DNA from: an uncultured Candidatus Saccharibacteria bacterium
Lineage (GTDB): Bacteria > Patescibacteriota > Doudnabacteria > UBA920
Length of the DNA stretch: 64,000 bases
Reading direction: 5' to 3'
Assembly: GCA_964532425.1 (NCBI GenBank)
Contig: CAZHIA010000003.1
Coordinates: forward strand, 201,748 to 265,747
Every line of letters begins with the position of its first letter. Position 1 is the first letter of the stretch. The position numbers and the translations under genes were made by a program. The notes under the pieces were generated by a model. The model made no database searches, had not been told where the DNA came from, and worked only from the letters and a program-made list of their open reading frames with translations. Positions 8,859 through 48,864 of the stretch are shown here, piece after piece.

Positions 8859-8860
8859 TA

Positions 8861-14608: not shown

Positions 14609-14628
14609 AACTCCAGAAAGGACTGATC

Positions 14629-14874: not shown

Positions 14875-14894
14875 ACATCGGCTGGCACACAACA

Positions 14895-14925
14895 ACCCGG
14901 ACCACTTTGGTCCGGGTCTTTTTTA
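14895..14925 (+). terminator. rho-independent terminator
   Basis: ACCCGGACC-ACTT-GGTCCGGGT then TCTTTTTTATTT. Confidence 0.65.
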
Positions 14926-14929
14926 TTTC

Positions 14930-15760: not shown

Positions 15761-15774
15761 GGTAAGGAGGAATA

Positions 15775-16419
15775 TTGTTTAAACCAGCTGTCTGTATATG
15801 CGTGTTTGTCGCCAGTGTTCCCGCCCTGGCACAGTACCAGAGTGGGTTCGGCGTGGAATTACGACCGGGAGTCTTGATTCTACCGGATTACCTACAATCC
15901 ACAACGCTGCGGATCAACCCCACACTCACCCAAACCTTCCTCGCTCCCCACCGGGGTTTTTACCTGTTCAGCGGCAGCATTGCACCGGAATTGTATTGGC
16001 ACCGCTTTGCGGTCCGTGGCGGACCGGTATTTACCTACCCGATGTACCCGACCAGGGACACTACGGCATTAACCTCAAGCCAGTTCTCAATCGGCATGGA
16101 GCAAAAGATGATTGTCTCCGGCTTTGGGGAAATGCAGTTCAACTTAACGAAAAGTTTCTCGGTCATAGCGGGCTACACCCAGAACCGCTACAACCTCGAA
16201 GCCAACTACCCTCCGGGTACGATAAATCGCTTCTCCCGGCATACACTCCGTTTACCCTACGGCGGCATCCGTTTCCAGCCCAGTGTGCTCGGAATGTACG
16301 CTACAATCGGTCCACTGTCCGAAAGCATGACACTACTGCGGCCAAATACCGACATAACCATGAGCACTCCAACTTATTTCGTCTCCGCAGGTCTGGTCTT
16401 TGACTTCTCCTGGCATTAG
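15775..16419 (+). CDS. secreted beta-rich protein, outer-membrane beta-barrel-like
   Basis: TAAGGAGG SD then TTG start; signal peptide; alternating amphipathic strands; C-terminal ...VFDFSWH. Confidence 0.45.
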   Translation: MFKPAVCICVFVASVPALAQYQSGFGVELRPGVLILPDYLQSTTLRINPTLTQTFLAPHRGFYLFSGSIAPELYWHRFAVRGGPVFTYPMYPTRDTTALTSSQFSIGMEQKMIVSGFGEMQFNLTKSFSVIAGYTQNRYNLEANYPPGTINRFSRHTLRLPYGGIRFQPSVLGMYATIGPLSESMTLLRPNTDITMSTPTYFVSAGLVFDFSWH

Positions 16420-16564
16420 CAGACCGCTTCACAAAGCGAGGTTAGAAAAAACCTCGCAACCGAAAGCCGTTTCATCCGCTCCGGCGGTCTTGGAACGGCC
16501 ATTTTCATTTCCAAATAGCTGCTCCTGAACTATACTTAAAGCATAGATATTGCAGGAGGAAATA

Positions 16565-17680
16565 ATGCAGTTTCTTACCGGCATCGACACTCCGATGCCA
16601 GATGTTATGAAAGATGGCGGCGTTGTCTGGAACCATCATGCGAAATGGAATCAATGGGAAACACATTGGGAAGATGACCTGCGCTGGCATGCCGACAACG
16701 GTTTTCGGCTGTTACGCTTCAATATTCCATGGTCGCTGATCCAGCCCAAACAGAACATCTTTGACTTCACGGTACTTGGGCCACAGATCGAGCTTGCCCG
16801 CAAACTTGGCATCGAGATCGTCTATCCGCTCGCGCACTTCAACTACCCGTACTGGATCTGCCGTGACGACGAGCTTCATCCCACACTGGCTTCAGGATTA
16901 GCTGATGCACTGGCACTGTATGCCGAGGTAGCCAAACGGGAATTCTCTTTCCACTATATTATTCCCATAGTCGAAATCAGCATCGATTGTATGCTGCGTA
17001 GCGCGGATTCGCGATGGGCTGACCACAGCGGAGTCTGGGCGCCCCATGCCCGGGGCGTTCGCGAAGTGATGGAACACAATCTCACCAGGGCTTTCGTGAC
17101 CGCCGCGGCCAACCTCCAGCACCGATCCGGCTCGCTGATCCTCTGCTCAGAACCTGCTTCCGCGCTGGACATCGTAAAAAATATCAGTCGCTATTGCGAC
17201 ATCCTCGGCATGGATTACTATCCAAAATTCCACCGTCATCCAAAAAACGGCGAACCAGATCTCTCAGACCGCCTCAAACAATGGAGCATCCTGTTCAAAC
17301 GCCCGATCGCCATAACCGAATACGGAATTCCCGAAACGTACGATTGGGACAGGCAACGCGACCAGCCCGATTTGCACATTCGTGCCGGAGATTGCCGGAA
17401 CCGGACCCAGGCAGCCAAGTACTTATTCCGGGAGATCCGCAAAGCCAAACAAGCCGGAGTGACGATTCCCTTCGCGGGATGGTTCCCGAGCATTGATAAC
17501 CGCGGCTGGGAAAGCCTGCTCACGAAAGACCCAGGAAATGCTGCCGGCAATCGCGCCGGCATTGTCGATCTGGAGTGGGAAGATAGCAAACTCCGGCGCG
17601 TCCCCTGCGCTGAACTGGTTGCGGAACTTCACACCCTTAGCGATTACAAGCAAGCCAAAGAAGCATCCACATCAACGTAA
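16565..17680 (+). CDS. TIM-barrel glycoside hydrolase (GH1/GH5-like)
   Basis: AGGAGG SD; ITEYGIPE resembles GH1 nucleophile motif I/VTENG. Confidence 0.5.
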   Translation: MQFLTGIDTPMPDVMKDGGVVWNHHAKWNQWETHWEDDLRWHADNGFRLLRFNIPWSLIQPKQNIFDFTVLGPQIELARKLGIEIVYPLAHFNYPYWICRDDELHPTLASGLADALALYAEVAKREFSFHYIIPIVEISIDCMLRSADSRWADHSGVWAPHARGVREVMEHNLTRAFVTAAANLQHRSGSLILCSEPASALDIVKNISRYCDILGMDYYPKFHRHPKNGEPDLSDRLKQWSILFKRPIAITEYGIPETYDWDRQRDQPDLHIRAGDCRNRTQAAKYLFREIRKAKQAGVTIPFAGWFPSIDNRGWESLLTKDPGNAAGNRAGIVDLEWEDSKLRRVPCAELVAELHTLSDYKQAKEASTST

Positions 17681-17685
17681 GACAC

Positions 17686-17716
17686 AAAAACCCCGTCGCG
17701 ATCGCGACGGGGTTTT
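17686..17716. terminator. bidirectional terminator
   Basis: AAAAA-CCCCGTCGCGATCGCGACGGGG-TTTT palindrome between convergent genes. Confidence 0.65.
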
Positions 17717-19507: not shown

Positions 19508-19678
19508 AGAGGTTATAAGTACACCTGCCGAAAAACGGAAAAGAAATAAGGTAGAAATAAAGTTGAGATACAGTGGAAATACAATTGTATTTCTATGGTA
19601 TTTCTACCATATTTCTATTTATTTCTTGTTTAATTGATTAGTATTCCATTTCGACAAAAGGTCATTTTGAACAGTCTC

Positions 19679-22195: not shown

Positions 22196-22300
22196 ATACA
22201 AATCTACAGATGTATCCGAATCTACAAATACCTACAAATTCCGGTAAGTGGAATTTGTAGGTATTTGTAGATCTGTAGCAAATTTGTAAATTTGCAGCAC
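22196..22300. repeat. repeat element containing 21-bp perfect IR CTACAAATACCTACAAATTCC / GGAATTTGTAGGTATTTGTAG
   Basis: IR arms 22222-22242 and 22250-22270; TCTACAGAT and TTTGTAAATT units shared with 39692-39790. Confidence 0.6.
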
Positions 22301-22807: not shown

Positions 22808-22813
22808 AAAAAA

Positions 22814-22917
22814 GCTACGAAACTACGGAATACACGAATCTACGGAAAACTACAAATTCTCTTCATGAAGATCCGTAGTTTTCCGTAGATTCGGATTCTT
22901 TTCGTAGTTTCGTAGTC
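22814..22917. repeat. ~100-bp imperfect palindrome built of CTACGAAACTACGG / CCGTAGTTTTCGTAG units
   Basis: arms ~40 bp each around TCTTCATGAAGA core. Confidence 0.55.
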
Positions 22918-27722: not shown

Positions 27723-27983
27723 GCTATTAATTCAAAATGAAAAATTCAAAATTCAAAATGTAGGTGTCCGCCGAAGGCGGACTCTATAACTTTTAACTTT
27801 ACACTTTTAACTTTGAACTGATATGTGTACGTTCGTTCACCTTATTATGATAGCATAAAAAAACGGCCAAAGCCGTAAGTTGTCCACAAGAAGCTTTCAG
27901 CTATCAGCTTATAGCTGTTAGGAGGGGCCGATAAAAAGAACTTCAATGCTGGTATTCCTATAAGCTAAAAGCTATAAGCTTGC

Positions 27984-28463: not shown

Positions 28464-28467
28464 ATAA

Positions 28468-28551
28468 ATATAAAACCTTTAACATTTAACATTTGACCTT
28501 TAACTTAATACAAAACCGGTCAAATGTCATATGTCAAAGGTTAAATGTTGT
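28468..28551. repeat. MITE-like element, TTTGACATTTGACC family copy 1
   Basis: AACATTTAACATTTGACC ... GGTCAAATGTCATATGTCAAAGGTTAAATGTT inverted arms. Confidence 0.6.
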
Positions 28552-29082: not shown

Positions 29083-29141
29083 AGATATTATTTGGTTTTA
29101 GTATAGAATAGTTTGCGGAAAAACGCAAATCATTGTTACTA

Positions 29142-29222
29142 ACATGCGACATGTAACCTTTGACATTTGACCAACCGAAACAGATTCACGTCAAATGTTA
29201 AATGTCAATTGTCAAATGTCCT
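29142..29222. repeat. MITE-like element, TTTGACATTTGACC family copy 2
   Basis: TAACCTTTGACATTTGACC ... GTCAAATGTTAAATGTCAATTGTCAAATGTCC. Confidence 0.6.
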
Positions 29223-29229: not shown

Positions 29230-30237
29230 CTATTTAGTACTCAAGATGCTCTTCTTGTAACTATCCAAATTATCCAAGGCTACACCGGTTCCTTTCGCGA
29301 CGCACAGGAGCGATTCTTCCGCCACGAAACAGGGCACGCCAACCGACTGGGAAATGTAATGGTTCAAATTTTTGAGCAGCGCGGTGCCGCCGGTCATAAC
29401 CATACCCTTGTCAATAATATCCGAAGCCAGCTCCGGCGGTGTTTCCTGCAACACGGTCTTGACCGCCTTGACTATTTCACGCAACTCTTCCTGGATTGCA
29501 TCCACCGCTTCATTGGTAGAGACAGTCACGGTCTTTGGCAGGCCGGTAATCATATCCCGCCCTTTTACCTCCATCAATTCCTCTTCAGGCATGCGGACAG
29601 CCCCGCCAATGGTGACTTTGATATCTTCTGCAGTCCGGTCCCCGATAGCAATGTTGTGGCGGCGCCTGACGAAATCAATGATAGCCTGGTCCAAACGATT
29701 ACCCGCGACGCGCACCGAGGTGGAATTGACGATTCCACCGAGCGACAATACAGCCACGTCCGTGGTCCCGCCTCCGATATCGATGATCAGATTGCCGGAC
29801 GCTGAAGCAATAGGGATACCGGCACCGATCGCCGCTGCTACGGTCTCCTTAATGACATATGCCTGCTTGGCACCAGCTGCAATTGCAGCGTCGATCACCG
29901 CGCGTCGTTCGGTTGAAGTAATACCTCCCGGCACCGAAATCATGACTTCCGGACGGAAGAAACGAATATTACCGAGAGCCTTGTTAATAAAATACCGGAG
30001 CATAGCCTCTGTTACCCGGTAATCAGCAATAACCCCATCCTTCATAGGGCGGCTAGCAACAATCGTCTCTGGAGTACGCCCGAGCATTTCTTTGGCCTCC
30101 TGTCCCACCGCGAGGACCTTATTCTCTTCCAATGAAATAGCAACAACCGTAGGCTCATTGATAATAATCCCCTTTTTGGGGACGAATACCAGAGTATTAG
30201 CCGTTCCGAGATCAATGCCAATTTTCGTTTCAAACAT
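29230..30237 (-). CDS. mreB: rod-shape protein MreB
   Basis: start MFETKIGIDLGTANT; actin-fold phosphate motifs DIGGGTTD. Confidence 0.9.
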   Translation of the reverse strand: MFETKIGIDLGTANTLVFVPKKGIIINEPTVVAISLEENKVLAVGQEAKEMLGRTPETIVASRPMKDGVIADYRVTEAMLRYFINKALGNIRFFRPEVMISVPGGITSTERRAVIDAAIAAGAKQAYVIKETVAAAIGAGIPIASASGNLIIDIGGGTTDVAVLSLGGIVNSTSVRVAGNRLDQAIIDFVRRRHNIAIGDRTAEDIKVTIGGAVRMPEEELMEVKGRDMITGLPKTVTVSTNEAVDAIQEELREIVKAVKTVLQETPPELASDIIDKGMVMTGGTALLKNLNHYISQSVGVPCFVAEESLLCVAKGTGVALDNLDSYKKSILSTK

Positions 30238-30350
30238 GAAATATAATCCTAAACTACGAATAGTATCCAAATGCCCCAAATGGACCCAATTCGATTTGAA
30301 TCATTCGGATTGCGAGTATTCGGAGCATTCGGATTATATTAATATACCTA
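30238..30350. mobile_element. ~100-bp MITE-like derivative (R1-A) of the 42761-43208 GxxExxY cassette, in mreB 5' region
   Basis: ATAATCCTAA...GCCCCAAATGGACCCAATTCGATT...CATTCGGATTGCGAGTATTCGGAGCATTCGGATTATAT; ~80% identical to 48055-48158. Confidence 0.6.
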
Positions 30351-30415
30351 ACGACTTATTATACCAAACGTTGGTGTATTGTTAAAGCCCCATTTTTCCT
30401 GTAAAATAGGCATAT

Positions 30416-36735: not shown

Positions 36736-36847
36736 TTCATTTGCCTCCTGCTATGGAATTTTTTGTTTACGCCTCATACAATTTTGAAACGCAATTGTAT
36801 TTAAAAGCAATTTGTTTTTTGTGTCAAGATGTGGACAAATGGAAAAA

Positions 36848-36948
36848 TCCAATTTCCAATTCCCAATTTCTAATAAAACACCCAAACTGACCAGTACCAG
36901 TTTGGGTGTTCTGAATTTTTTGGAAATTAGATATTGGAAATTGGAAAT
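36848..36948. repeat. MITE-like element: CCAATTTCCAATTCCCAATTTCTAAT / ATTAGATATTGGAAATTGGAAATTT arms around 13-bp perfect hairpin AACACCCAAACTG/CAGTTTGGGTGTT
   Basis: immediately downstream of pgk stop; same family as 21091-21188. Confidence 0.6.
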
Positions 36949-38175
36949 TTATTTCAATGCTTCTATCCCCGGCAGTTTCTTGCCGGCTAAATATTCCAGC
37001 ATGGCGCCGCCACCGGTGGAGACATGGTCGATATTCTCAAACTGGTGCGATTGCCTCACCGCATCCACCGTTTCTCCGCCACCGACTACGGCATAAGCCT
37101 TGCGGCCGGCAACACCGCCGATGACGCGCGCCAAAGCCATAGTAGCCGTGCGGAACGGCTTGGCTTCAAAATAGCCTAGCGGGCCATTCCAGACGATGGT
37201 TTTGGCTGCTTTGAGCTCTTCCGCATACATGAGAATAGTCTTCGGCCCAACATCCAGGATCATCTCTTGCTTGCCCACCTCATAGGGCGTACGGACCCGA
37301 ATCGAATCGCGGCTCATATTCTTGTCTGCCACTACGACATCCACGGGCAACAGCAGTTTATCCTTGAAATTCTTCGAGATCTCAAAAGCAATGCGTTCCG
37401 CCCCGTCTTCCGCTTTCGACAATCCGACTTCCATACCTTTCGCTTTGAAGATCAATGTAGACAATCCCCCGCCAAGCAGGATCTTGTCAGCCTTTTCCCC
37501 GAGATGGGTAAGCGTCTTGGCTTTGTCGGAAATTTTAATGCCACCCATGAGCAGGACAAAGGGTTTCTTGTGCTTATGAGTCACGACATCAAGCGATTTA
37601 ATCTCTTGCTCCAGTAACGGGCCACAATATGACGGTAATAATTTCGTAATGACAGCTGTCGACGCGGCAGCCCGATGGCACACGGAAAAAGCGTCGTTGA
37701 CATAGACATCACCCAAACGAGCCAGACACCGCGCGAAATATTTGTCATTCTCCTCTTCACCCTTGTAGAAGCGGAGGTTTTCCAGCATGACAATATCCTT
37801 GGCCGTAATATTCTTGAGCTGGTCAGCGTGCAGGTCAGCCATAATGTTCCCGGTGTAGAAGATGAGATGGCTAATGGGGTACTCAGGCAGCGGGTGATGA
37901 GTTTCCAAAAACTTATACCCTAAATGCCCGGCAAGGACCTTGGCCACGGGCTTCAACGACAAACTCTTATCCCGGCCCTCGGGCCTTCCCAAATGCCCGC
38001 AGAGAATAATGCGATTATTCCCTTCCTGAAGCATCCGAATGGTCGGAATAATGGAGGCAATGCGAAAATCATCCGCCACCTTGCCGGTCTTATCGTCAAT
38101 CGGAACATTCACATCCACGCGCAGAAGGATGGTTTTATTTTTTAGGGTAGTGGGTTTTAGATACTTGATGGACAT
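36949..38175 (-). CDS. pgk: phosphoglycerate kinase
   Basis: MSIKYLKPTT...RVDVNVP; GGGA/GGGETV nucleotide-binding motifs. Confidence 0.9.
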   Translation of the reverse strand: MSIKYLKPTTLKNKTILLRVDVNVPIDDKTGKVADDFRIASIIPTIRMLQEGNNRIILCGHLGRPEGRDKSLSLKPVAKVLAGHLGYKFLETHHPLPEYPISHLIFYTGNIMADLHADQLKNITAKDIVMLENLRFYKGEEENDKYFARCLARLGDVYVNDAFSVCHRAAASTAVITKLLPSYCGPLLEQEIKSLDVVTHKHKKPFVLLMGGIKISDKAKTLTHLGEKADKILLGGGLSTLIFKAKGMEVGLSKAEDGAERIAFEISKNFKDKLLLPVDVVVADKNMSRDSIRVRTPYEVGKQEMILDVGPKTILMYAEELKAAKTIVWNGPLGYFEAKPFRTATMALARVIGGVAGRKAYAVVGGGETVDAVRQSHQFENIDHVSTGGGAMLEYLAGKKLPGIEALK

Positions 38176-38655
38176 ATGATACCGATATACGGATTTGAAT
38201 ACTGATGATACGGATAAATACGGATCACCCCTTCCAGTTATCTATCCTCACAATACGCTTGGGTTTGATGTATTTATCCCGAAAATTGACCAGGATTCCA
38301 AGTTTTAGACCACTCTCTTGAAGGTACCGTTGTACTTGATAATAAACGTCTTTTGTTAATAACCGCTTAGCCTTAAACTCGAGTAGCACCAGCCCTTTCA
38401 CTATACCATCTGCAATATTATTTGAATCCCCGATTCTCACTTCCGTTTCAAACCCTATTCCTTTTTCTTTGAATAAGCGCTTAACCACCTCTACGTATTG
38501 CTTCTCTCGAGCATATGGGCCGACTTCGTTATGTGCCGCAAACAGTACACCATTAATGTCAAACGTCAAATCCTCGTAAATCAGTTTACGTTCTCTAGGT
38601 TTGATATCCGTATTATCAGTATCATCCGTACCCATCAGTATATCCGTATCATATT
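38176..38655. mobile_element. GxxExxY-gene cassette flanked by imperfect inverted repeats of ATACGGAT/CAGTAT units
   Basis: flanks 38180-38224 and 38598-38652 are reverse-complement related; inserted between gap and pgk. Confidence 0.5.
38225..38635 (-). CDS. GxxExxY-family protein (PD-(D/E)xK nuclease-like)
   Basis: HNEVGPYAREKQYVEVV ... VLLEFKAKRLL ... GLKLGILVNFR; paralog of 42768..43127. Confidence 0.65.
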   Translation of the reverse strand: MGTDDTDNTDIKPRERKLIYEDLTFDINGVLFAAHNEVGPYAREKQYVEVVKRLFKEKGIGFETEVRIGDSNNIADGIVKGLVLLEFKAKRLLTKDVYYQVQRYLQESGLKLGILVNFRDKYIKPKRIVRIDNWKG

Positions 38656-39679
38656 ATATACTCTTCCCTACTAATATAGCCTCCTCCACCAGCCTATTGC
38701 TATACCCGAACTCGTTATCGTACCAGGCGATGATTTTAACAAAGTTGCCGTCAATAACCTGGGTCAGCGAGAGGTCGACGATGCAGGAAGCGGGATTGCC
38801 GACAATGTCGGATGACACGATCTGCTCAGTGGTGACTTCCAGGATGCCTTTATACGTCTTGTGCTTGCTGGCTTCGGTCATGGCTTTGTTGATCTCTTCC
38901 TTGGTGGTTTTTTTCTTCAGGATGATGGAAAAATCAGAGAGACTGCCGACTGGCGTAGGCACGCGGATGGCCAAGCCGTCAAATTTGCCGCGCAGCTCGG
39001 GAATAGCCTGAGTAGCCGAAATGGCAGCACCGGTGGAGGTGGGTATAATATTGGCCGCAGCGGCACGGGCGCGGCGCAGGTCATTGGCTTTGCCTCCGGG
39101 CGGCGGTCCGTCAACCAAATTTTGTTCGGCGGTATAACTGTGAATAGTGGTCATGAATGCCTTATCAATACCGAATTTGGCTTGCAATACCGCCATAACC
39201 GGCGTGATGCAGTTGGTTGTGCACGAAGCGTTGCTGATAATCGCCTGATCCTTGTAATCCTTCTGATTCACACCAAGCACAATGGTCGGAGTAACACCTT
39301 CGTCTTTGGCCGGGGCGGATATGATAACGCGGCGCGCGCCAGCCTTAATATGGGCAGACGCTTTTTCACTGTCCGTAAAACGCCCGGTAGACTCAATGAC
39401 CACGTCAACTTTTAACTTGCCCCAGGGCAGCATGCTCGGATCTTTTTCCGCAAAGATCGGGTACTTCTTACCTTCGACCACTACCTCCTTTTCGGTGGCT
39501 CCGATATCCAGCGGAAATTTCCCATAATTAGTGTCGTATTTTAACAAGTGCGCCAACACTTGAGGACTCGTCAAATCATTAATCCCCACTACTTCCAATT
39601 CTTTCTTTTCCAGCGCCAATTTAAAGGCCTGGCGTCCAATGCGGCCAAATCCGTTGATACCAACCCTAATCTTTTTCAT
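38654..39679 (-). CDS. gap: glyceraldehyde-3-phosphate dehydrogenase
   Basis: MKKIRVGINGFGRIGR; ASCTTNC catalytic motif. Confidence 0.9.
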   Translation of the reverse strand: MKKIRVGINGFGRIGRQAFKLALEKKELEVVGINDLTSPQVLAHLLKYDTNYGKFPLDIGATEKEVVVEGKKYPIFAEKDPSMLPWGKLKVDVVIESTGRFTDSEKASAHIKAGARRVIISAPAKDEGVTPTIVLGVNQKDYKDQAIISNASCTTNCITPVMAVLQAKFGIDKAFMTTIHSYTAEQNLVDGPPPGGKANDLRRARAAAANIIPTSTGAAISATQAIPELRGKFDGLAIRVPTPVGSLSDFSIILKKKTTKEEINKAMTEASKHKTYKGILEVTTEQIVSSDIVGNPASCIVDLSLTQVIDGNFVKIIAWYDNEFGYSNRLVEEAILVGKSI

Positions 39680-39691
39680 AGCATCTCCATG

Positions 39692-39790
39692 CAAATTTAC
39701 AGATGGTCACAAATCTACAGATACCTACCTATTTCCAATCCTGCATATCTGTAGTTATTTGTAAATTGGCTACTATCTGTAGATTGGCAT
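39692..39790. repeat. repeat element of TCTACAGAT/TTTGTAAATT family
   Basis: AAATTTACAGATGG...AAATCTACAGATACCTACC...ATATCTGTAG...TATCTGTAGATTGG; same motif set as 22196-22300. Confidence 0.55.
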
Positions 39791-41283: not shown

Positions 41284-41786
41284 CAGGGAGAGGTTAACAT
41301 ACGACCTTCCTGATGGTTTCCAATATCCCTTCCATGTTACTATCTAAATCATTATTCCAGAATCTTAAGACCGTATACTTGTGTTCTTCTAAAAACTCTT
41401 GTTTGCTTTTGTCCTTCTGTGAGACTCCTATGGTACCATGTTGGCTGCCATCGAGTTCTATAACCAATCTTTTGCTCTGGCAACAGAAATCTACTACATA
41501 ATCGCCAATTGGCACTTGCCTCTTAAATTTAAGACCATTAAACCTGTTCCCTCGCAAAAAATACCATAACTTAGCTTCCCACGGGGTGGATTTCTTTCTG
41601 AGAAGCTTTGATACTATTGTCAGGTTTTTCCCTTCCAGAATCTAACCTCTCTCCTGTCCTCTCTCCATGCAATGGAGAGAGGAACCTTCTACACAGACTT
41701 TCTGATATTTATAATTCGCATAGATAGTATTAATTTCCACAGTACGTCCCCTCCCCAATGCATGGGGAGGGACAGGGAGAGGTTAA
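41284..41786. mobile_element. DUF559-gene cassette bounded by 14-bp direct repeats CAGGGAGAGGTTAA
   Basis: direct repeats at 41284-41297 and 41773-41786; internal CTCC...CATG...GGAG palindromes (41659-41682, 41746-41773). Confidence 0.5.
41294..41557 (-). CDS. DUF559 (Vsr-like endonuclease fold) protein, N-terminally truncated
   Basis: VPIGDYVVDFCCQSKRLVIELDGSQH ... VLRFWNNDL; TTG start. Confidence 0.6.
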   Translation of the reverse strand: MRGNRFNGLKFKRQVPIGDYVVDFCCQSKRLVIELDGSQHGTIGVSQKDKSKQEFLEEHKYTVLRFWNNDLDSNMEGILETIRKVVC

Positions 41787-42763
41787 AGCCGGGGTTTGTT
41801 TTTCCTCCCCATTACCTTCTTTACCGCACTGACAATGGCTTTTGTACCCATTCCGTATTTTTCGGCCAGTTCATTAGGCGTACCTGACTCGCCAAACACA
41901 TTCGGCATGCCGACCATTTCGATAGGCACGGGGCAGTGCTGTGCCAGCACCTCGCAGACCGCACTACCGCAGCCAGCCATTGTCTGGTGTTCCTCCAGTG
42001 TAACTACGGCCCCGCATTTTTGTGCTGCTGCCACAATCGTCTCAACATCGATCGGTTTGATGGTGTGATTATTGATCACCATCACGCTGAGACCTTCTTT
42101 TTCGAGTTCCCGGGCAGCAAGCAGTCCGCTGTAGAGTATCGGCCCGCTGCCGATTATCGCCGCGTCAGCTCCCTCCCGAAATACGACAGCCTTGCCGATC
42201 TCGAACGGAGCGTCCTCAGTGGTCATCACGGGCGACTTTTCCCGACCCAGTCGAAAATATACCGGTCCGGTAGTTTCAGCGGCTGCTATGGCCGTTTTTT
42301 TGGCTTCTACGGCATCACACGGAACGATCACGGTCAAATTCGGGAGGACTCGGGTAATTGCCACATCTTCGAGCGCCTGGTGAGTCGCCCCGTCAGGGCC
42401 AACCGAGACTCCGGCGTGGCAACCGGCAATCTTTACATTGGCCTGGCTGTAACATACGCTCACGCGCAGCTGATCCCAGGACCGTCCCGGTGAGAATACG
42501 GCATATGAGGTCACAAACGGAATCTTTCCGGCCAGCGCCATCCCCGCTGCCACACCCATCATATTCTGTTCAGCTACTCCACACTCAACGAACCGTTCCG
42601 GGTATTGTTTAGCAAACGCTTCAACGCGGGTGCTTTCTGCCAGATCCGCGGTCAGCACAACCACATTCTCGTCGGCCGCCCCGGCTTCCAATACACCATC
42701 ACCAAAACCATTACGAGTAGGGACTTGTTCGATGTCAGGTTGTCCAATCTTAGAGTTCAACAT
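41783..42763 (-). CDS. transketolase, C-terminal (pyrimidine-binding) subunit
   Basis: PTRNGFGDGVLEAG...; start ATG lies inside the left TIR of the adjacent cassette. Confidence 0.8.
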   Translation of the reverse strand: MLNSKIGQPDIEQVPTRNGFGDGVLEAGAADENVVVLTADLAESTRVEAFAKQYPERFVECGVAEQNMMGVAAGMALAGKIPFVTSYAVFSPGRSWDQLRVSVCYSQANVKIAGCHAGVSVGPDGATHQALEDVAITRVLPNLTVIVPCDAVEAKKTAIAAAETTGPVYFRLGREKSPVMTTEDAPFEIGKAVVFREGADAAIIGSGPILYSGLLAARELEKEGLSVMVINNHTIKPIDVETIVAAAQKCGAVVTLEEHQTMAGCGSAVCEVLAQHCPVPIEMVGMPNVFGESGTPNELAEKYGMGTKAIVSAVKKVMGRKNKPRL

Positions 42764-43208
42764 AATCCTAATTCCCCGAATTAATATCCAAATTCCCCGA
42801 ATAACTGCTATTAAGTACGCGCTTTGGAGACAATCGATACGCTCGAAAATTAACAAGCAATCCTAATTCTAATTTAGATGCTGTTAAATATCTTTGCATC
42901 TGCAAATAATCTTCTTTAGTAATATATGGTTTTGCTTTGAGATCAATAACTATTTTATTCTCAGCCAAGAAATCAACCCTGTTTCCCTTAGGTGATCCTT
43001 CTATGAATAGTTTAATTTCGTACTCCCGTCGATACTCAATTTGTTCTTCTATCAACATTTTTTCGAATTCATCACAATACTGTCTTTCCGACGCAAAACG
43101 TCCCAGCTTTTTATGGACCTTAAACACAATCCAACAATTTTATATGATAATTCTGGCTCCACTATTTGAGGCATTTGGATTGCAGTATTCGGGGAATTAG
43201 GATTATGT
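42761..43208. mobile_element. 448-bp TIR-bounded cassette encoding a GxxExxY protein
   Basis: TIR CATAATCCTAATTCCCCGAAT at 42761-42781, reverse complement at 43188-43208 (21 bp perfect; ~26 bp with internal duplication on left). Confidence 0.7.
42768..43127 (-). CDS. GxxExxY-family protein (PD-(D/E)xK nuclease-like)
   Basis: VDFLAENKIVIDLKAK ... ELGLLVNFR; C-terminal 12 aa encoded by the TIR. Confidence 0.6.
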   Translation of the reverse strand: MFKVHKKLGRFASERQYCDEFEKMLIEEQIEYRREYEIKLFIEGSPKGNRVDFLAENKIVIDLKAKPYITKEDYLQMQRYLTASKLELGLLVNFRAYRLSPKRVLNSSYSGNLDINSGN

Positions 43209-45389
43209 TTCCTTTCCTTGTAAAAACCCTATTATCTGCTCCCGGTGCCTGCGATAAATAATGGATACGCCGACCAAAATAAACCCGAGGGCTATGAACG
43301 ATACAACTCTAAAGCTCAAGTCCAATACGAGGAGATCGTACAAAAAGACCTTCAGAATAGTCACGGCGAACAAGACGACGGCCAGTTTTTTAAGCAATGA
43401 GTTGTTGCGGAAGACTCCCCAGAACATCATCACCGCCGAATACACGATCCACCACAGGCTCAAGATGAGGTTGCGGGCATTTTTTGAATCAAAACCCCGG
43501 TAATGCTCCACAATCTCCCATGAGACAGCTAGCCACAACAACAAACTCGCTCCTACATTGAACACATCACTCAGCTGATTCTGACCCTCGCCGCGGCGGT
43601 AGATATACGCGGCAAACAGCAAGGCCGCAGCCTCAAGTACCATTAATTCGAATTTGGTATTCATCAAGAAAACCGGGTTAGCGTCATATGGCAGCACGAG
43701 AACGCGTACCAGGCTAAACACCAGTAAGATCGCGGCCGTAGCCATAAGCAGCTTTCGTTTGGCCAATGCGGCAATCAGGAGCAACAGCGCCGGATACAAC
43801 ACCCACCATAACGCCATCCACTGGCTGCGAGCCAAGTCAGTCGTCCCGACCAGGGCCGCGGCAATATCCCAGCTGACTCCCGCCCACAGGACCAGGATTG
43901 CAACAATCTCCATAGCATCCCGCGCCTTGTCTCCGGTTTGCGGGTCCGGATACCGGCTATAGAGCCAGCCAGCATACAAAAGCGCCAAGGTATCGGCAAA
44001 CATCAGACCGAATTTGGCATTGAACAGGAAAACGAGATCTTGTGACGTATACGGCTCCACGACGGATTTGAACAGCGCCAAGAACAGAATCACCACACTC
44101 CACATGCGGAGCTCTTCGCGCTTCAATAATGCGCCGATCGTAATACCAAACAACCCCAAAGCCAACCAAGCGAGAGCCAAGGCCTTCCCCTGCCATTCCC
44201 AACCGGCGGCACAGACCAGCATGACAGCTCCCACAATCGATAATCCGTAGTTCAGCATACGGTATTCCAGCCGGTCAACTAAGGCATAAGCAAACAGGAA
44301 CAGCACACCGCCGAGCAACGCCACCGGTGCAAGCAGCGAATGATAGTTCTCATTAAGAAGCAGCGCGATGGATATAAAATAGAACAAGCCGGACAGAGTC
44401 GCTACAATTGAAGCATCTTTTTCGAAATTTTTCGGAAGCACCCCCTGTGCGTGATGATACCTGGTCAAAAAACCGAGACCGAGCACGAATAGCACAGACG
44501 TGAAAATGATAAAGAACAGGCTCGGATAGGTATTGCCCGCATTCGAGTAAGCGGAACCCCAGACGGCAAAATCGAGCGTTGCCCCAACCAGGGCTAGCAG
44601 CATCAATTCCAGCCAATATTTTCTCGCCAGAACGACCAACACAGCAATGTTAAGCAGCGTAAGATAAATGAGCAGCGGCCCCTGCTGGTCATGACCGGTA
44701 GACAAAACGAGCGGTGACCCATAAGCCCCAAAAAATGCCAATGCCCCCAAAGCCAGAGAAGAATGCCGATATGCCAGCCAGACGGATAGCGCGGCAACAC
44801 CGAGCATAAGCACGAACGCCAGCGGCTGGGGCAGCAATCCATAAAAATGGAAGCCGGCATACAAAGTGAAATACAACAAGGCAATACCGCCTCCTGTAAT
44901 GGCTAGCGCGTAATTACCATACCGTTCCTTCCACAATTCTCCAAGATAGATCAGCAATCCGCCAACGGCCAATCCGAGCGCAATACGGACCCACTCATTG
45001 ATCCAGCCCATGTCAACGGCGATCTTATAAAAAAACGCAACGCCTAAAACCAGAGCAGCGACCCCGATCTTGTTGAGCCAAGAAATCGCGCGGTCCGTAT
45101 TCATCTCGCTGTGCCGTTCCTCAGGCCTGGCAGAGACAGGGGCTTGGAAGGTCCGTGCTTCCGGCTCGCGGTGCGACGGAAAAGGCGTATGATGAATTTC
45201 CGGCTGCTGCAGCGCGGCATTGTATTCGGCTTCGGTCGGCGGACGTGGCGCAGGGCGCGGCGGAGCGGACGCAAGTCCCTGGCTCCGCAGACGCGCTTCC
45301 AATTCATGTACGCGATTGTTGATACTGGCAATCCAAAAGATCAGAATAAGAACGACAACGAACAGTACGAATTCAATGAATCCGGACAT
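43203..45389 (-). CDS. DUF2339-like polytopic membrane protein
   Basis: 728 aa, >20 predicted TM helices in repeated blocks; stop codon overlaps right TIR. Confidence 0.55.
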   Translation of the reverse strand: MSGFIEFVLFVVVLILIFWIASINNRVHELEARLRSQGLASAPPRPAPRPPTEAEYNAALQQPEIHHTPFPSHREPEARTFQAPVSARPEERHSEMNTDRAISWLNKIGVAALVLGVAFFYKIAVDMGWINEWVRIALGLAVGGLLIYLGELWKERYGNYALAITGGGIALLYFTLYAGFHFYGLLPQPLAFVLMLGVAALSVWLAYRHSSLALGALAFFGAYGSPLVLSTGHDQQGPLLIYLTLLNIAVLVVLARKYWLELMLLALVGATLDFAVWGSAYSNAGNTYPSLFFIIFTSVLFVLGLGFLTRYHHAQGVLPKNFEKDASIVATLSGLFYFISIALLLNENYHSLLAPVALLGGVLFLFAYALVDRLEYRMLNYGLSIVGAVMLVCAAGWEWQGKALALAWLALGLFGITIGALLKREELRMWSVVILFLALFKSVVEPYTSQDLVFLFNAKFGLMFADTLALLYAGWLYSRYPDPQTGDKARDAMEIVAILVLWAGVSWDIAAALVGTTDLARSQWMALWWVLYPALLLLIAALAKRKLLMATAAILLVFSLVRVLVLPYDANPVFLMNTKFELMVLEAAALLFAAYIYRRGEGQNQLSDVFNVGASLLLWLAVSWEIVEHYRGFDSKNARNLILSLWWIVYSAVMMFWGVFRNNSLLKKLAVVLFAVTILKVFLYDLLVLDLSFRVVSFIALGFILVGVSIIYRRHREQIIGFLQGKET

Positions 45390-45996: not shown

Positions 45997-46041
45997 ATAT
46001 TAATCTTTTAATCCTTAAATTTTTAAATTTTAAATTTGATA

Positions 46042-47601: not shown

Positions 47602-48057
47602 TCATACCAGATTAGTTCGTTCTATGCTTTCTATCTCCCTAATTCGGCGCTTGTGGCGTTCCTCGGTGCCAAATGGAGTCTGTAAAAATGCTTTGACGAT
47701 CTTTCTTGCCTCAACCACGGTGATGAAGTCGGCTGGCAGGCTCAGTACATTCGCAAAATCATCATGACGACTCGCCTTGGCTTCTTTGATATTCCAAACC
47801 AGAGCCGACCGCACGCCCCTGAATTTATTAGCTACGATAGAAACCCCTTGGCCACTGCGGCAAATCAACAGTCCCATATTAGTCTTCGGCTGCTTTGCAA
47901 CTTCAGTCGCAACCTTGGTAGCATAGGGAGGATAATCATCACTCTTGTCTAATTTCTCCGGACCCAAATCCACATACTCTATCCCCTGCTTCACAAAAAA
48001 TTTCTTCAATTCTTCCTTAAGTTTATAGCCTCCGTGGTCAGATGCGATAAATAACAT
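47602..48057 (-). CDS. rpiB: ribose-5-phosphate isomerase B
   Basis: MLFIASDHGGYKLKEEL ... LICRSGQGVSIVANK. Confidence 0.9.
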   Translation of the reverse strand: MLFIASDHGGYKLKEELKKFFVKQGIEYVDLGPEKLDKSDDYPPYATKVATEVAKQPKTNMGLLICRSGQGVSIVANKFRGVRSALVWNIKEAKASRHDDFANVLSLPADFITVVEARKIVKAFLQTPFGTEERHKRRIREIESIERTNLV

Positions 48058-48158
48058 AATCCTAATGCTCCGAATTGGTATCCGTATGCCCCGAATGGAC
48101 CCATTCGATTCGGGTCATTCGGATTGCAAGCATTCGGATAATTCGGATTATATTTACA
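48055..48158. mobile_element. ~100-bp MITE-like derivative (R1-B) of the GxxExxY cassette; terminus overlaps rpiB start codon
   Basis: CATAATCCTAATGCTCCGAAT...GCCCCGAATGGACCCATTCGATT...CATTCGGATTGCAAGCATTCGGATAATTCGGATTATAT. Confidence 0.6.
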
Positions 48159-48864
48159 TGTTAATTATTTGATTAAAATGCTTCGGAATGAGGCTGTCTG
48201 CGCCAACCAGCAAGCCGTCGACGTGCGGCTGTTCCAAATACGGCTTGGCATTGAAGACATTGACGCTGCCGCCGTAGAGCACGGTTTTTACATTGTAACG
48301 AGTCTTGATGTAAAGAGAGATCTTTTCCGCATGGTCCGGGGTCGGTACTTTTTTGGTCAAGTACGGGTCACCGCTCGAGATGGCCCAAACAGGTTCGTAT
48401 GCCACCACGACCTTGGACGGATCAATACCGCGCAAATCCAGTTCCAGCTGGCCTTTCAGGACATCTACCACGGCTAAATCATCTTCCTCAGCTGTCGTTC
48501 CATAACCAACACAGAGAATGGGAGTGATTTTGTGTTCAACCAGGGTCCTGAGCTTAAAATTGACCTGGTCATCCGTTTCCCCAGTCCCACGCTTCTCACT
48601 ATGGCCGATGATGCAATATTTGATTTTGAGTGCCTTGAGCTGCACCGGCGAGATCTGGCCAGTGAACGCGCCGCGTTCTTCCCAAAAGCAGTCCTGGCTG
48701 CCTATATTGGGGAAATCTACCAATCCCATAAAAGCCGGCGGCGGACAGATGACCACCTTGCTGTTCGCTTCGCGCGAAATCTTGGCAGCCAGCCTGACTG
48801 CCTCTTTCGGAGTCGCCGGATTTAGTTTCCAGTTGGCTACGATCAATTTTTGAGGGAGTTTCAT
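48154..48864 (-). CDS. tpiA: triosephosphate isomerase
   Basis: VANWKLN, IGHSE(K)R, YGGSV motifs. Confidence 0.9.
   Translation of the reverse strand: MKLPQKLIVANWKLNPATPKEAVRLAAKISREANSKVVICPPPAFMGLVDFPNIGSQDCFWEERGAFTGQISPVQLKALKIKYCIIGHSEKRGTGETDDQVNFKLRTLVEHKITPILCVGYGTTAEEDDLAVVDVLKGQLELDLRGIDPSKVVVAYEPVWAISSGDPYLTKKVPTPDHAEKISLYIKTRYNVKTVLYGGSVNVFNAKPYLEQPHVDGLLVGADSLIPKHFNQIINM

What the first reader, a model, noticed from the sequence alone, without database searches (positions are those of the whole stretch)
30238..30350. Gene-less ~100-bp derivatives of the GxxExxY element sit in the 5' regions of mreB and rpiB and donate the ribosome-binding module
Segments 30238-30350 (upstream of mreB) and 48055-48158 (upstream of rpiB) are ~80% identical to each other. 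Each equals the left end (CATAATCCTAAT-[G/T]C[T/C]CCGAAT-...-CCCCGAAT) plus the right end (CATTCGGATTGCAAG-[C/T]ATTCGGA-TAATTCGGATTATAT) of the 448-bp element with the ORF deleted, which is the classic MITE-from-parent-element relationship. At rpiB the element's terminal CAT is the rpiB start codon (ATG at 48057) and its AATCCTAA supplies an AGGA SD-like box. At mreB the same box lies 13 nt upstream of the ATG. Three essential genes (tktC, rpiB, mreB) therefore appear to draw translation-initiation signals from one mobile-element terminus.
Basis: seen in the sequence. Interest (0 to 1): 0.7.

Follow-up and report, generated by a model that had tools for sequence, protein, structure and literature searches.

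The report
Oriented hairpin repeat filling gene spacers
The two ~100-bp segments are gene-less copies of a ~95-bp palindromic repeat, spread through Patescibacteria genomes, that fills the gap between one gene's stop codon and the next gene's start in a fixed orientation and has longer copies carrying a small nuclease-fold gene of unknown function in the hairpin loop.

Summary
Segments 30238-30350 and 48055-48158 are about 79% identical. Their ends match the ends of the 448-bp element at 42761-43208, whose loop holds a GxxExxY (PDDEXK_3) ORF.

All three are long imperfect hairpins. About 20 further copies occur in other Patescibacteria genomes between unrelated gene pairs. All 18 aligned short copies point the same way as the downstream gene. 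Most start 4-8 nt after the upstream stop codon and end in UAGGA 7-10 nt before the next start codon.

Orthologous spacers in two syntenic relatives carry different hairpins, and copies resemble same-genome copies more than orthologous ones. So this is a turning-over repeat family, not a conserved leader.

- The longer form encodes a nuclease-fold protein, not a known transposase, and no target-site duplication is seen.
- Whether the ORF was deleted or inserted cannot be decided.
- At rpiB and tktC the AGGA is only 2 nt from the ATG. GGATTATG (L030) or GGATTCTATG (L005) precedes rpiB in relatives that lack the element, so that context looks native.
- SD use is unproven, and the box is predicted to be paired.

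All ten GxxExxY genes examined lie between inverted repeats. Verdict: a new variant of palindromic, MITE/IVS-like elements; moderately interesting.

The parts
30238..30350 (-). ORF-less copy of the CCGAAT hairpin element. It makes up the whole predicted 5' UTR of mreB. The core runs ATAATCC 30243-30249 to GGATTAT 30331-30337. AGGA is at 30250-30247, 9 nt before ATG 30237.
30358..30385 (-). Near-consensus sigma-70-type promoter (TTAACA, 16-nt spacer, TG-n-TATAAT; 11 of 12 matches). The predicted transcription start at about 30351 lies at the 5' edge of the hairpin. A TATAAT box (GGTATAAT) also lies just upstream of the orthologous L007 element.
29230..30237 (-). mreB. It matches the MreB profile from residue 1, so ATG 30237 is the start.
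48056..48153 (-). ORF-less copy that fills the entire 96-nt spacer between the tpiA stop (TAA, 48156-48154) and the rpiB ATG (48057-48055). In transcript orientation its 5' end lies 2-5 nt after the tpiA stop codon, depending on where the end is drawn. AGGA is followed by TT and then the ATG.
47602..48057 (-). rpiB. There is no alternative in-frame start upstream, and the profile match begins at residue 2.
48154..48864 (-). tpiA, the cistron upstream of the rpiB copy.
42761..43208 (-). Long (448-bp) copy of the same hairpin. Its outer arms, 42759-42781 and 43187-43209, are 23 nt and 100% complementary. The DUF2339 stop codon (TAA, 43205-43203) lies inside the 5' terminal ATAATCC. The transketolase C-subunit ATG (42763-42761) is fused to the 3' terminal GGATTAT.
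42768..43174 (-). GxxExxY / PDDEXK_3 ORF in the apical loop. Its ATG (43174-43172) lies in the 5'-arm module AATCCAAATG. Its stop codon is the TAG of the 3'-terminal ATTAGGATT (42770-42768). A 1-nt deletion in a T run near 43127-43131, relative to the intact L007 homologue, breaks the frame after about 17 codons.
41783..42763 (-). Transketolase C-terminal subunit, downstream of the long copy.
43203..45389 (-). DUF2339 membrane protein, upstream of the long copy.
38173..38660 (-). Second GxxExxY element (ORF 38225-38635) in a hairpin of unrelated sequence. Its arms (38174-38194 and 38634-38654) are built of GATACGGAT units. It fills the spacer between the gap stop codon (38654) and ATG 38175 of the next gene. 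It shows the same architecture with different arms.

Best explanation
The two segments are non-coding copies of a dispersed, oriented, palindromic repeat of about 95 bp (here called the 'CCGAAT hairpin') found in Patescibacteria.

Anatomy, read on the transcript strand: 5'-ATAATCCGAAT-TAT-CCGAAT-ACTGC-AATCCRAATG-AC-CCGAAA-loop-TTYGGRGC-ATTCGGAT-AYTA-ATTCGG-RGC-ATTAGGATTAT-3'.

Shown:
- The element is always co-oriented with the flanking genes and occupies the whole spacer.
- It begins a few nucleotides after the upstream stop codon. Its own ATAATCC offers a TAA.
- It ends with UAGGA, usually 7-10 nt before the next start codon.
- Longer copies of about 450-470 bp carry a GxxExxY (PD-(D/E)XK fold) ORF in the apical loop. 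That ORF starts in the 5' arm and stops at the UAG of UAGGA.
- Copies turn over at orthologous sites and are homogenised within genomes.

Inferred:
- It is a selfish, MITE/IVS-like element that is tolerated in very compact operons for two reasons. The stem folds the insertion out of the way, bringing stop and start codons together. The termini also restore punctuation: a stop at the 5' end and an SD-like box, sometimes with the ATG, at the 3' end.
- The SD-like box is sequestered in the stem. Downstream initiation would then depend either on the terminating upstream ribosome opening the base of the stem (translational coupling) or on RNase III cutting the stem.
- Spread or homogenisation probably uses the loop-encoded nuclease together with recombination between arms.

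At mreB the copy forms the entire 5' UTR behind a conserved promoter. At rpiB and tktC the terminal GGATTAT is fused to a start context that looks native.
For: - Family and palindrome.
- Independent copies: about 20 in genome and metagenome collections, between unrelated gene pairs.
- Positional rules: an upstream stop lies between -8 and +1 of the 5' end in 13 of the 19 complete copies tabulated. AGGA lies 7-10 nt before an ATG or TTG that opens a long ORF in 15 of the 18 aligned short copies.
- Orientation: all 18 aligned short copies are co-oriented with the downstream gene. The profile scores about 100 bits in that orientation against about 50 in reverse.
- Long forms: the ORF lies in the loop and its start and stop lie in the arms, in the window, L018 and L007.
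- Turnover: the tpiA-rpiB spacer of the 80%-identical syntenic relative L030 and of L005 holds other hairpins. L005 has this element upstream of gap, where the window has a different hairpin.
- Within-genome similarity: the mreB copy is nearest to the rpiB copy (79%), not to the orthologous L007 mreB copy (70%). The L007 mreB copy has L005, from its own genome, among its three equal-nearest copies (83%).
- Architecture of the gene family: 10 of 10 GxxExxY genes examined, including Flavobacteriales and other non-CPR contigs, are intercistronic and flanked by inverted repeats made of short tandem units. Their N- and C-terminal tails are arm-encoded.
- Protein: the fold is PD-(D/E)XK and the E, D and K motif residues are conserved.
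- mreB promoter at the 5' edge of the hairpin.
Against: - No target-site duplication and no recognisable transposase. Mobility is inferred from distribution only.
- Only 3 copies occur in 64 kb, and the per-genome copy number is unknown.
- Stem covariation is almost absent because the sequences are so similar.
- The G-U versus A-C asymmetry (32 vs 18 in the family; 11 vs 12 in other hairpins) does not decide between an RNA-level and a DNA-level structure.
- Most core genes of this genome lack an SD, and the GGA is predicted paired (P about 1) even in promoter-proximal copies, which have no upstream ribosome to open the stem. The SD and coupling step is therefore weak.
- The window's own GxxExxY copy is frameshifted.
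- The mreB copy is retained at the orthologous site in a relative, which could also reflect a host function.
Confidence: 0.6

Rival explanations
1. The short hairpins came first and are the targets. The GxxExxY gene is a homing-type selfish ORF that invades the apical loops of pre-existing hairpins by cutting 'empty' hairpins and being copied in through arm homology. On this reading the ~100-bp copies are empty sites rather than deletion derivatives.
For: - The conserved GxxExxY core sits in hairpins of quite different arm sequence: CCGAAT, GATACGGAT, CACAGAG and CCGCGGATTA units.
- Start and stop codons and the terminal peptide tails are recruited from whichever arms are present.
- Other small ORF families occupy similar positions: a GIY-YIG-like ORF (identified by eye from its translation) at L005 5155-5520 between TTCGACCTTGTGGAGAA-type repeats, and a PF05635 gene between rpiB and rpe on the P0061 contig, whose flanks could not be read.
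- Many hairpin families in the window have no ORF-bearing copy.
- Junction motifs (…ATTG|…|GCAGTTATTCGG) are shared by the loops of several short copies and by the ORF ends of long copies, as an insertion into a TTGCAGT loop would produce.
Against: - The same junctions are equally well explained by deletion.
- This does not explain how ORF-less hairpins themselves reach new spacers.
- No cleavage data exist.
- Arms of 40 bp are short for homologous repair.
Confidence: 0.3
2. The hairpin is primarily a host cis-regulatory RNA module kept by selection: an intercistronic RNase III processing site, a translational-coupling device, or a 5'-UTR stabiliser. Its repeat-family appearance comes from recombination between functionally equivalent modules.
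For: - Strict co-orientation with genes and exact stop-to-start placement.
- Conserved asymmetric internal loops, and the conserved G-A mismatch that keeps UAGGA.
- Retention upstream of mreB in two genomes whose mreB genes are only 74% identical, together with a TATAAT -10 box.
- Nearly every co-directional spacer in this region and in L005 carries some long hairpin abutting the start codon.
- The stems are of the length and type cut by RNase III in rRNA intervening sequences (PMC4990558).
Against: - Orthologous spacers carry unrelated hairpins or none. L030 has an extra hairpin at 4010-4187 that the window lacks, so no particular sequence is required.
- 80-85% identity between distant lineages at unrelated loci indicates copying, not convergence.
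- Partial copies lie inside coding regions or are fused to truncated genes (L002, L019).
- The association with a nuclease ORF is typical of selfish DNA.
- A selfish origin and a secondary host function are not mutually exclusive.
Confidence: 0.2
3. The segments are vertically inherited, lineage-specific leader sequences of mreB and rpiB, and their similarity is a remnant of local duplication. There is no mobile or repeat-family dynamic.
For: The mreB copy is present at the orthologous position in Candidatus Doudnabacteria MAG CAVYGQ01 (L007).
Against: - About 20 copies lie at unrelated loci in different metagenomes and CPR lineages.
- The rpiB spacer in syntenic relatives holds different hairpins.
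- Same-genome copies are more alike than orthologous ones.
Confidence: 0.03
4. The hairpins belong to another known class of palindromic or repeat features: integron attC sites, intrinsic terminators, or CRISPR/TIGR arrays.
For: They are imperfect palindromes of attC-like length lying between co-oriented ORFs. Their arms are built of short tandem units. TIGR arrays occur in Patescibacteria (PMC12045711).
Against: - The ends are ATAATCC and GGATTAT, not RYYYAAC and GTTRRRY. The flanking genes are housekeeping genes (tpiA, rpiB, mreB, tkt, gap), and none of the roughly 35 window ORFs scanned matched an integrase.
- The terminator scan found none at either site.
- There are no variable spacers, no 36-nt dual-spacer units and no Nop-domain Tas or cas gene. 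Copies are single and dispersed.
- No Rfam family matches, even at E <= 1.
Confidence: 0.02

Closest known systems
Bacterial MITE-like palindromic intergenic repeats: Neisseria Correia/NEMIS, enterobacterial ERIC/IRU (RU-1), pneumococcal RUP/BOX (reviews PMC3184786, PMC2229807)
   Same: They are about 100-150 bp imperfect palindromes, dispersed in transcribed intergenic regions, co-transcribed with neighbouring genes and folding into long RNA hairpins. From my own knowledge, some affect mRNA processing or expression of neighbours, and some have longer ORF-bearing relatives.
   Different: No target-site duplication is detectable. The longer relative encodes a PD-(D/E)XK GxxExxY protein rather than an IS transposase. 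Orientation is strict, placement is exact from stop codon to start codon, and the 3' end carries a conserved UAGGA. The family is shared across many Patescibacteria genomes.
ORF-bearing 23S rRNA intervening sequences (e.g. the 428-nt Coxiella burnetii IVS encoding S23p/PF05635; PMC4990558)
   Same: A long stem closes off an insertion of about 430-470 nt, a small ORF sits in the loop, and ORF-less versions exist. The insertion is tolerated because the stem restores the context of the host RNA, and the stems are RNase III substrates. A PF05635 gene occupies a comparable intercistronic position (between rpiB and rpe) in a relative.
   Different: The location is mRNA spacers and a 5' UTR, not rRNA helices. 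The ORF family is GxxExxY/PDDEXK_3. RNase III excision has not been shown here.
REP/REPIN elements and their RAYT genes (PMC3337134)
   Same: A protein-coding gene flanked by inverted copies of a palindromic repeat, with many ORF-less copies of the same repeat elsewhere in extragenic positions, often just after stop codons. Within-genome homogeneity.
   Different: REPs are short GC-rich hairpins mobilised by an IS200/IS605-type tyrosine (HUH) transposase. Here the repeat is an AT-rich hairpin of about 95 bp, the protein has a PD-(D/E)XK fold, and several different hairpin families with their own GxxExxY genes coexist in one genome.
Free-standing or intron-borne homing endonuclease genes (including PD-(D/E)XK ones such as I-Ssp6803I; own knowledge)
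   Same: A small nuclease-fold ORF is present or absent at otherwise homologous sites, here the long and short forms of one hairpin. It is co-oriented with and silent towards host genes.
   Different: There is no intron or intein. The 'site' is the loop of a dispersed palindrome. Cleavage specificity is unknown.
Translational coupling through RBS-sequestering structures (review PMC12548453; Q-beta coat-gene SD hairpin, PMC2978339)
   Same: The SD and start of the downstream cistron are paired in a structure whose other strand lies just 3' of the upstream stop codon.
   Different: The two strands are 90-450 nt apart in sequence and belong to a repeat element. Coupling has not been tested.

Membership tests
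MITE (non-autonomous derivative of an IS or transposon) | Short, non-coding, with terminal inverted repeats | tested here: met
   96-113 bp, palindromic over the full length. The mini-ORF from the arm ATG to the terminal TAG keeps its frame in only 9 of 17 copies.
MITE (non-autonomous derivative of an IS or transposon) | Multiple dispersed copies at non-homologous sites | tested here: met
   3 copies in the window and about 20 in other genomes and metagenomes between unrelated genes. The per-genome copy number is not measurable with the data held.
MITE (non-autonomous derivative of an IS or transposon) | Target-site duplication flanking each copy | tested here: inconclusive
   The flanks in alignment A2 show no direct repeat of 2 nt or more. 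Only the self-complementary terminal AT/TA could hide one.
MITE (non-autonomous derivative of an IS or transposon) | Shares termini with an autonomous element encoding a transposase | tested here: not met
   The longer relatives exist (window 42761-43208, L018 4147-4617, L007 7693-). Their only ORF is GxxExxY/PF13366, a PD-(D/E)XK fold closest to Cas4 and restriction-endonuclease folds. No transposase family matched.
REP/REPIN-RAYT | Short (about 20-40 bp) GC-rich palindromes mobilised by an IS200/IS605-like HUH tyrosine transposase gene flanked by REPs | tested here: not met
   The repeat is an AT-rich hairpin of about 95 bp and the flanked gene is PDDEXK_3. The extragenic position after stop codons is shared.
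rRNA intervening sequence (IVS) | Located in a 23S/16S rRNA helix and excised by RNase III | tested here: not met
   The copies lie between protein-coding genes or in a 5' UTR, and there is no rRNA in the window. RNase III processing is not testable with these tools.
rRNA intervening sequence (IVS) | Extended stem-loop, optionally with a small ORF in the loop | tested here: met
Integron attC site | R''-L''/L'-R' core sites (RYYYAAC ... GTTRRRY), promoterless cassettes, nearby intI | tested here: not met
   The termini are ATAATCC and GGATTAT. The flanking genes are tpiA, rpiB, mreB, tkt and gap.
Intrinsic (Rho-independent) terminator | Short GC-rich stem followed by a U tract | tested here: not met
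   No terminator-like site was found at either element. The base of the stem is AU-rich and is followed directly by a start codon.
Homing endonuclease gene | Nuclease ORF present or absent at otherwise homologous sites | tested here: met
   Long and short forms of the same hairpin occur within one genome or contig (the window; L018 4147-4617 and 7196-7291).
Homing endonuclease gene | The enzyme cleaves the ORF-less allele and is copied in by repair | not testable with these tools
GxxExxY protein family (TIGR04256 / PF13366) for the loop ORFs | Profile match above the curated cut-off | tested here: met
   42768-43127 scores 70 bits against a cut-off of 35. 38225-38635 scores 52.4 bits against 35.
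TIGR-Tas array | Tandem 36-nt units (edge repeat, spacer A, loop repeat, spacer B) next to a Nop-domain Tas gene (PMC12045711) | tested here: not met
   The hairpins are single and dispersed, their arm units are 9-14 nt without variable spacers, and no Tas-like gene was seen among those annotated.

The most novel reading that the evidence does not exclude
GxxExxY/PDDEXK_3 genes form a very large family: 22,346 representatives of 50%-identity clusters at E <= 1e-3. Together with small GIY-YIG and PF05635 genes, they may define an unrecognised class of bacterial selfish elements, here called 'hairpin-loop residents'. A long palindrome made of short tandem units would insert between cistrons, loop itself out at the RNA level (an mRNA counterpart of rRNA intervening sequences), and restore stop, RBS and start signals with its termini. 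It would spread or be homogenised through a structure-specific nuclease encoded in its loop, acting on hairpin or cruciform DNA. In Patescibacteria such hairpins would then occupy a large fraction of operon spacers and shape translation initiation of core genes such as mreB, rpiB, tkt and gap.
Probability: 0.3. Interest if true: 0.8.

Novelty: new variant of a known kind. Interest (0 to 1): 0.6.

Why it matters
1. It gives a concrete, testable context for a very large protein family of unknown function (GxxExxY, PF13366/TIGR04256). Every member examined here sits in the loop of an intercistronic palindrome. That points to a nuclease acting on hairpin, cruciform or arm DNA, or to a homing-type selfish gene.

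2. It shows how a repeat element can live inside tightly packed operons of reduced Patescibacteria genomes. It folds out as a hairpin and carries its own punctuation. This bears on how translation of core genes (mreB, rpiB, transketolase) is initiated in organisms that cannot yet be grown alone.

3. Practically, these hairpins mislead gene callers. The consequences seen here are arm-encoded low-complexity tails and over-extended starts such as TTG 30279 for mreB and TTG 42856 for tktC. Fused ORFs, suggested by the many 270-650 aa hits, may be another consequence but were not examined. The elements deserve a covariance or HMM model of their own.

Tried and rejected
- Sliding-window RNAfold scans of the whole window, as an MFE threshold and as a single-hairpin filter, were far too noisy. 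Ungapped inverted-repeat detection worked instead.
- Exact-protein look-ups of the window's MreB and RpiB found no source contig, and the cluster look-up gave no name. The source organism is therefore only placed near Candidatus Doudnabacteria, by similarity to L005/L007.
- A conserved mini-ORF (arm ATG to terminal TAG) in the short copies keeps its frame in only 9 of 17 copies, so it is not a conserved feature.
- Strand asymmetry of G-U versus A-C mismatches, used to decide between RNA and DNA structure, was inconclusive. RNAalifold covariation was almost nil because the sequences are too similar.
- I expected the SD to be free in promoter-proximal copies and sequestered in intercistronic ones. 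Prediction shows it paired in both.
- There were no matches in viral contigs, in plasmids, or in Rfam at gathering score or at E <= 1.
- Literature searches for GxxExxY, PDDEXK_3, PF05635 and for hairpins or MITEs in Patescibacteria found no description of this element.
- attC, terminator and TIGR/CRISPR readings were rejected (see rival explanations).
Full report
**1.
The window region concerned is a long run of minus-strand genes. mreB is 29230-30237, rpiB is 47602-48057, tpiA is 48154-48864, and the transketolase C-terminal subunit is 41783-42763. A DUF2339 membrane protein is at 43203-45389.

Segment 30238-30350 lies directly upstream of the mreB ATG (30237). Segment 48055-48158 fills the 96-nt gap between the tpiA stop codon (48156-48154) and the rpiB ATG (48057-48055). 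The two segments are 79% identical. Their halves align at about 80-85% to the two ends of the 448-bp element 42761-43208 (repeat families D6 and D10).

The internal ORF of that element matches GxxExxY/TIGR04256 (E = 2e-19) and PF13366 PDDEXK_3 (E = 1e-20). A profile built later from 18 family members scores the two window copies at E = 1.6e-29 and 5e-22. This is not chance similarity.

**2. Each copy is a long imperfect hairpin.**
On the transcript (minus) strand the rpiB copy folds at -38 kcal/mol (z = -4.2) and the mreB copy at -32.5 kcal/mol (z = -3.3). The joined ends of the 448-bp element fold at about -52 kcal/mol. Its outermost 23 nt are 100% complementary across 405 nt. The ORF therefore sits in the apical loop of the same hairpin.

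**3. It is a widespread family with strict placement rules.**
One scan each of the genome and metagenome collections, using a 21-nt arm pattern, returned 7 and 15 loci. About four of these (L001, L003, L012, L015) look like chance matches to the pattern, as expected for a pattern of this length. The rest come from Candidatus Doudnabacteria, Saccharibacteria and other Patescibacteria MAGs and from groundwater or soil metagenomes.

Eighteen short copies align cleanly (alignment A2). In transcript orientation the consensus is 5'-ATAATCCGAAT-TAT-CCGAAT-ACTGC-AATCCRAATG-AC-CCGAAA-(loop)-TTYGGRGC-ATTCGGAT-AYTA-ATTCGG-RGC-ATTAGGATTAT-3'.

Three rules emerge:
- All 18 aligned short copies are co-oriented with the downstream gene. 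The profile scores about 100 bits in that orientation and about 50 in reverse.
- Of the 19 complete copies tabulated, 13 have the stop codon of a long upstream ORF between 8 nt before the 5' end and 1 nt inside it. In the latter case the TAA of the terminal ATAATCC is used as the stop (window DUF2339 and L021).
- In 15 of the 18 aligned short copies the 3'-terminal AGGA lies 7-10 nt before an ATG or TTG that opens a long ORF.

One mismatch is conserved. The 5' arm has AAUCCGAAU and the 3' arm has AUUAGGAUU, giving a G-A mismatch that preserves UAGGA in 17 of 18 copies.

Three copies have no upstream ORF and instead follow a -10-like box: mreB in the window, mreB in L007, and L009. In the window the promoter is TTAACA-16-TGnTATAAT, with 11 of 12 matches and its -10 ending at 30358. 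That places the transcription start near 30351, at the 5' edge of the hairpin. The predicted mreB 5' UTR is therefore the element.

**4. Long forms.**
Besides the window's 448-bp copy, L018 (4147-4617) and L007 (from 7693) carry ORF-bearing copies. L018 also has a short copy on the same contig. The GxxExxY ORF either starts at the ATG inside the arm module AATCCRAATG (window, L007) or just after the arm (L018). It reads through the whole 3' arm, encoding ...HSDxNSxH, and stops at the TAG of ATTAGGATT.

The window's copy has a 1-nt deletion in a T run after about codon 17 relative to L007. This is either a recent pseudogene or a homopolymer sequencing error.

**5. The family turns over; it is not a conserved leader.**
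Two syntenic relatives were recovered. L005 and L007 come from one 949-kb Doudnabacteria contig whose genes are about 65-75% identical to the window at nucleotide level. L030 comes from a Logan contig that is 80% identical over 4 kb, with RpiB 87% identical.

- In L030 the tpiA-rpiB spacer holds a distantly related hairpin built of GCGAAT/TCGAAT units.
- In L005 the same spacer holds an unrelated hairpin built of CGCTGA units.
- The window's copy is much closer to copies at unrelated loci in other genomes (L022, L010, L004) than to either orthologous spacer.
- Conversely, L005 carries the CCGAAT element upstream of gap, where the window has a different hairpin at 39691-39785.
- The mreB copy is present at the orthologous site in L007. 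Yet the window's mreB copy is nearest to the window's rpiB copy (79%) rather than to L007's mreB copy (70%). L007's mreB copy has L005, from its own genome, among its three equal-nearest copies (83%).

This pattern indicates within-genome homogenisation or replacement.

**6. What must be corrected.**
- (a) No target-site duplication is visible in the 18 pairs of flanks. The ORF of the long form is not a known transposase. 'MITE from parent element' is therefore an analogy.
- (b) The direction of derivation is open. Several short copies have loops such as ...ATTGCAGTATAATTCGG, matching the 5' junction (CCCGAATTG|TGG...) and the 3' junction (...AATA|GCAGTTATTCGG) of long copies. Deletion of the ORF and insertion of the ORF into a TTGCAGT loop predict the same sequence.
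- (c) At rpiB and tktC the AGGA is separated from the ATG by only TT, unlike the 7-10 nt in the rest of the family. In L030 the sequence AAAGGGATTATG, and in L005 GCGGATTCTATG, precede rpiB without the element. The GGATT...ATG context therefore looks ancestral, and the element's terminal GGATTAT appears fused to it, possibly through microhomology. GGAG (rpiB) and GGGG (tktC), 10 nt upstream and inside the element, are the more plausible SD boxes.
- (d) Only about 10 of 42 core genes between 17.7 and 64 kb have any SD-like box, and several of those boxes lie in the 3' ends of hairpins. The GGA is predicted paired with probability about 1 in most copies, including the promoter-proximal ones. That the box serves as an SD, and how it becomes accessible, is inference.

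**7. The wider picture.**
A second GxxExxY ORF (38225-38635, E = 6e-14) sits in a hairpin of unrelated sequence built of GATACGGAT units. It again fills the spacer from a stop codon (gap, 38654) to the next ATG (38175).

Homologues of the loop protein have low-complexity N- and C-terminal tails, such as ...SGHSDINSGN, MRTNANTANTANK... and MGTDDTDNTD..., which are translations of hairpin arms. Six further GxxExxY loci were fetched:
- rpsO-X-NYN (L023)
- recA-X-ssb (L026)
- thrB-X-thrC in a Flavobacteriales MAG (L028)
- L029, L032 and L033

Five of the six are same-strand insertions between co-oriented genes; L032 lies between two opposite-strand genes. All six are flanked by inverted repeats made of short tandem units, although the L026 match is only 11 nt. 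Together with the four loci above (two in the window, L018 and L007, the last cut off at the locus end), 10 of 10 show this architecture.

Other small ORF families sit in comparable positions:
- A GIY-YIG-like ORF (identified by eye from its translation) in L005 5155-5520, flanked by TTCGACCTTGTGGAGAA-type repeats.
- A PF05635 '23S rRNA IVS protein' gene between rpiB and rpe in another relative, whose DNA could not be read.

The window itself carries at least nine more long spacer hairpins of other sequence families, each built of 6-10-nt degenerate tandem units. L030 has one at 4010-4187 that the window lacks.

**8. Mechanism.**
Shown: the anatomy, the orientation, the placement rules, the turnover, and the ORF-in-loop architecture.

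Inferred:
- The element is selfish DNA that survives in compact operons because the stem loops the insertion out. This brings the upstream stop and downstream start to the base of one helix, while its termini supply a stop (TAA in ATAATCC) and an SD-like box.
- The box is paired with the first 8 nt of the 5' arm, and that arm begins 4-8 nt after the stop codon. A terminating ribosome would therefore open the base of the stem, which is translational coupling as reviewed in PMC12548453.
- Alternatively, RNase III could cut the roughly 40-bp stem, as it does for rRNA intervening sequences (PMC4990558), and free the downstream leader.
- Copying or homogenisation is most simply attributed to the loop-encoded nuclease plus recombination between arms.

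Confidence is about 0.6 in the overall reading and much lower in any single expression or mobility step.

**9. Comparison and novelty.**
The element works like bacterial MITE-type palindromic repeats (Correia, ERIC; PMC3184786, PMC2229807), like REPIN/RAYT systems (PMC3337134), and most closely like ORF-bearing rRNA intervening sequences (PMC4990558). It fails defining membership features of each:
- There is no transposase and no target-site duplication.
- It is not a short GC-rich REP with an HUH transposase.
- It is not in rRNA.

It matches no Rfam family. Full-text searches found no description of it, nor of hairpin-embedded GxxExxY genes. The library does not cover subscription journals, and database family comments may mention related contexts. 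I rate it a new variant of a known kind, with interest 0.6.

Noticed in passing
window 38173-38660: A second GxxExxY ORF (38225-38635) lies in a hairpin with unrelated arms built of GATACGGAT units. It fills the spacer between gap and the next gene. Its N-terminal MGTDDTDNTD is encoded by the arm.
   Followed up: partly
window 19539-19619, 22204-22278, 22809-22902, 27891-27981, 28467-28549, 29141-29220, 36843-36950, 39691-39785, 51517-51590: At least nine more long spacer hairpins of other sequence families, with units such as ACATTTGAC, CCAATTTCC, ATCTACAGAT and CTACGGAAA. Most fill a whole stop-to-start spacer. Some carry AAGG 9-12 nt before the ATG.
   Followed up: partly
window 43120-43131: The GxxExxY ORF of the 448-bp element has a 1-nt deletion in a T run relative to the intact L007 homologue. 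This could be a pseudogene, an assembly error or a slippery site.
   Followed up: partly
L005 4022-4195 and 5155-5520: In the Doudnabacteria relative, a small GIY-YIG-like ORF (identified by eye from its translation, not by a profile search) sits after tktC, flanked by TTCGACCTTGTGGAGAA-type repeats. An ORF-less hairpin of the same units precedes tktC.
   Followed up: no
contig of P0061 (JGI 3300071358, no DNA available): A PF05635 (23S rRNA intervening-sequence protein / bAvd-like) gene is inserted between rpiB and rpe in a relative. Its position resembles that of the GxxExxY genes.
   Followed up: no
L002 4742-4805: In a Saccharibacteria MAG, a half-length stretch of the CCGAAT element lies in frame inside a miaA-like ORF (…GTGKIEGQWQHSPFGSFGLQHSDHSDYVYVYKSIPHHLID…). 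This recalls Rickettsia palindromic elements found inside genes.
   Followed up: partly
L019 414-460 versus L014 1540-1660: These are orthologous loci. L014 has an intact element followed by efp. In L019 the 5' arm is joined directly to about codon 50 of efp, which suggests a deletion with one end in the hairpin loop, or an assembly artefact.
   Followed up: partly
L020 3022-3126 versus L016 523-615: These are orthologous copies from one metagenome. L020 has an extra 14-nt GC palindrome (CCGCCAGCTGGCGG) nested in the 3' arm.
   Followed up: no
L030 4010-4187 versus window 46029-46045: The 80%-identical relative has an extra hairpin of about 100 nt built of CGCGGAT units, right after the tktN stop codon. 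The window lacks it. This is a presence/absence polymorphism of another hairpin family.
   Followed up: partly
L029 3411-3566; L026 3399-3640: The 3' flank of these GxxExxY genes carries three to four tandem copies of an arm-containing unit of about 46 nt. In L026 the region is interrupted by an N run. This suggests tandem amplification of hairpin arms.
   Followed up: no
window 1-17700: This part differs from the rest. Genes lie on both strands and many have strong AAGGAGG-type SD boxes. tRNA-Gln (6841-6915) has partial copies at 6526-6576 and 6936-7011, and there is an RtcB ligase gene at 9347-10585. It may be an integrated element next to the tRNA.
   Followed up: partly
search of 1.84 billion representatives: Many of the best GxxExxY hits are 270-650 aa long, with the domain at one end, in the middle, or present twice. 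These may be read-through fusions with neighbouring genes or tandem copies.
   Followed up: no
window 30279 and 42856: The mechanical ORF list extends mreB to TTG 30279 and tktC to TTG 42856, through the hairpin arms. Gene callers may over-extend such genes, which could explain why the exact MreB look-up found no record.
   Followed up: partly
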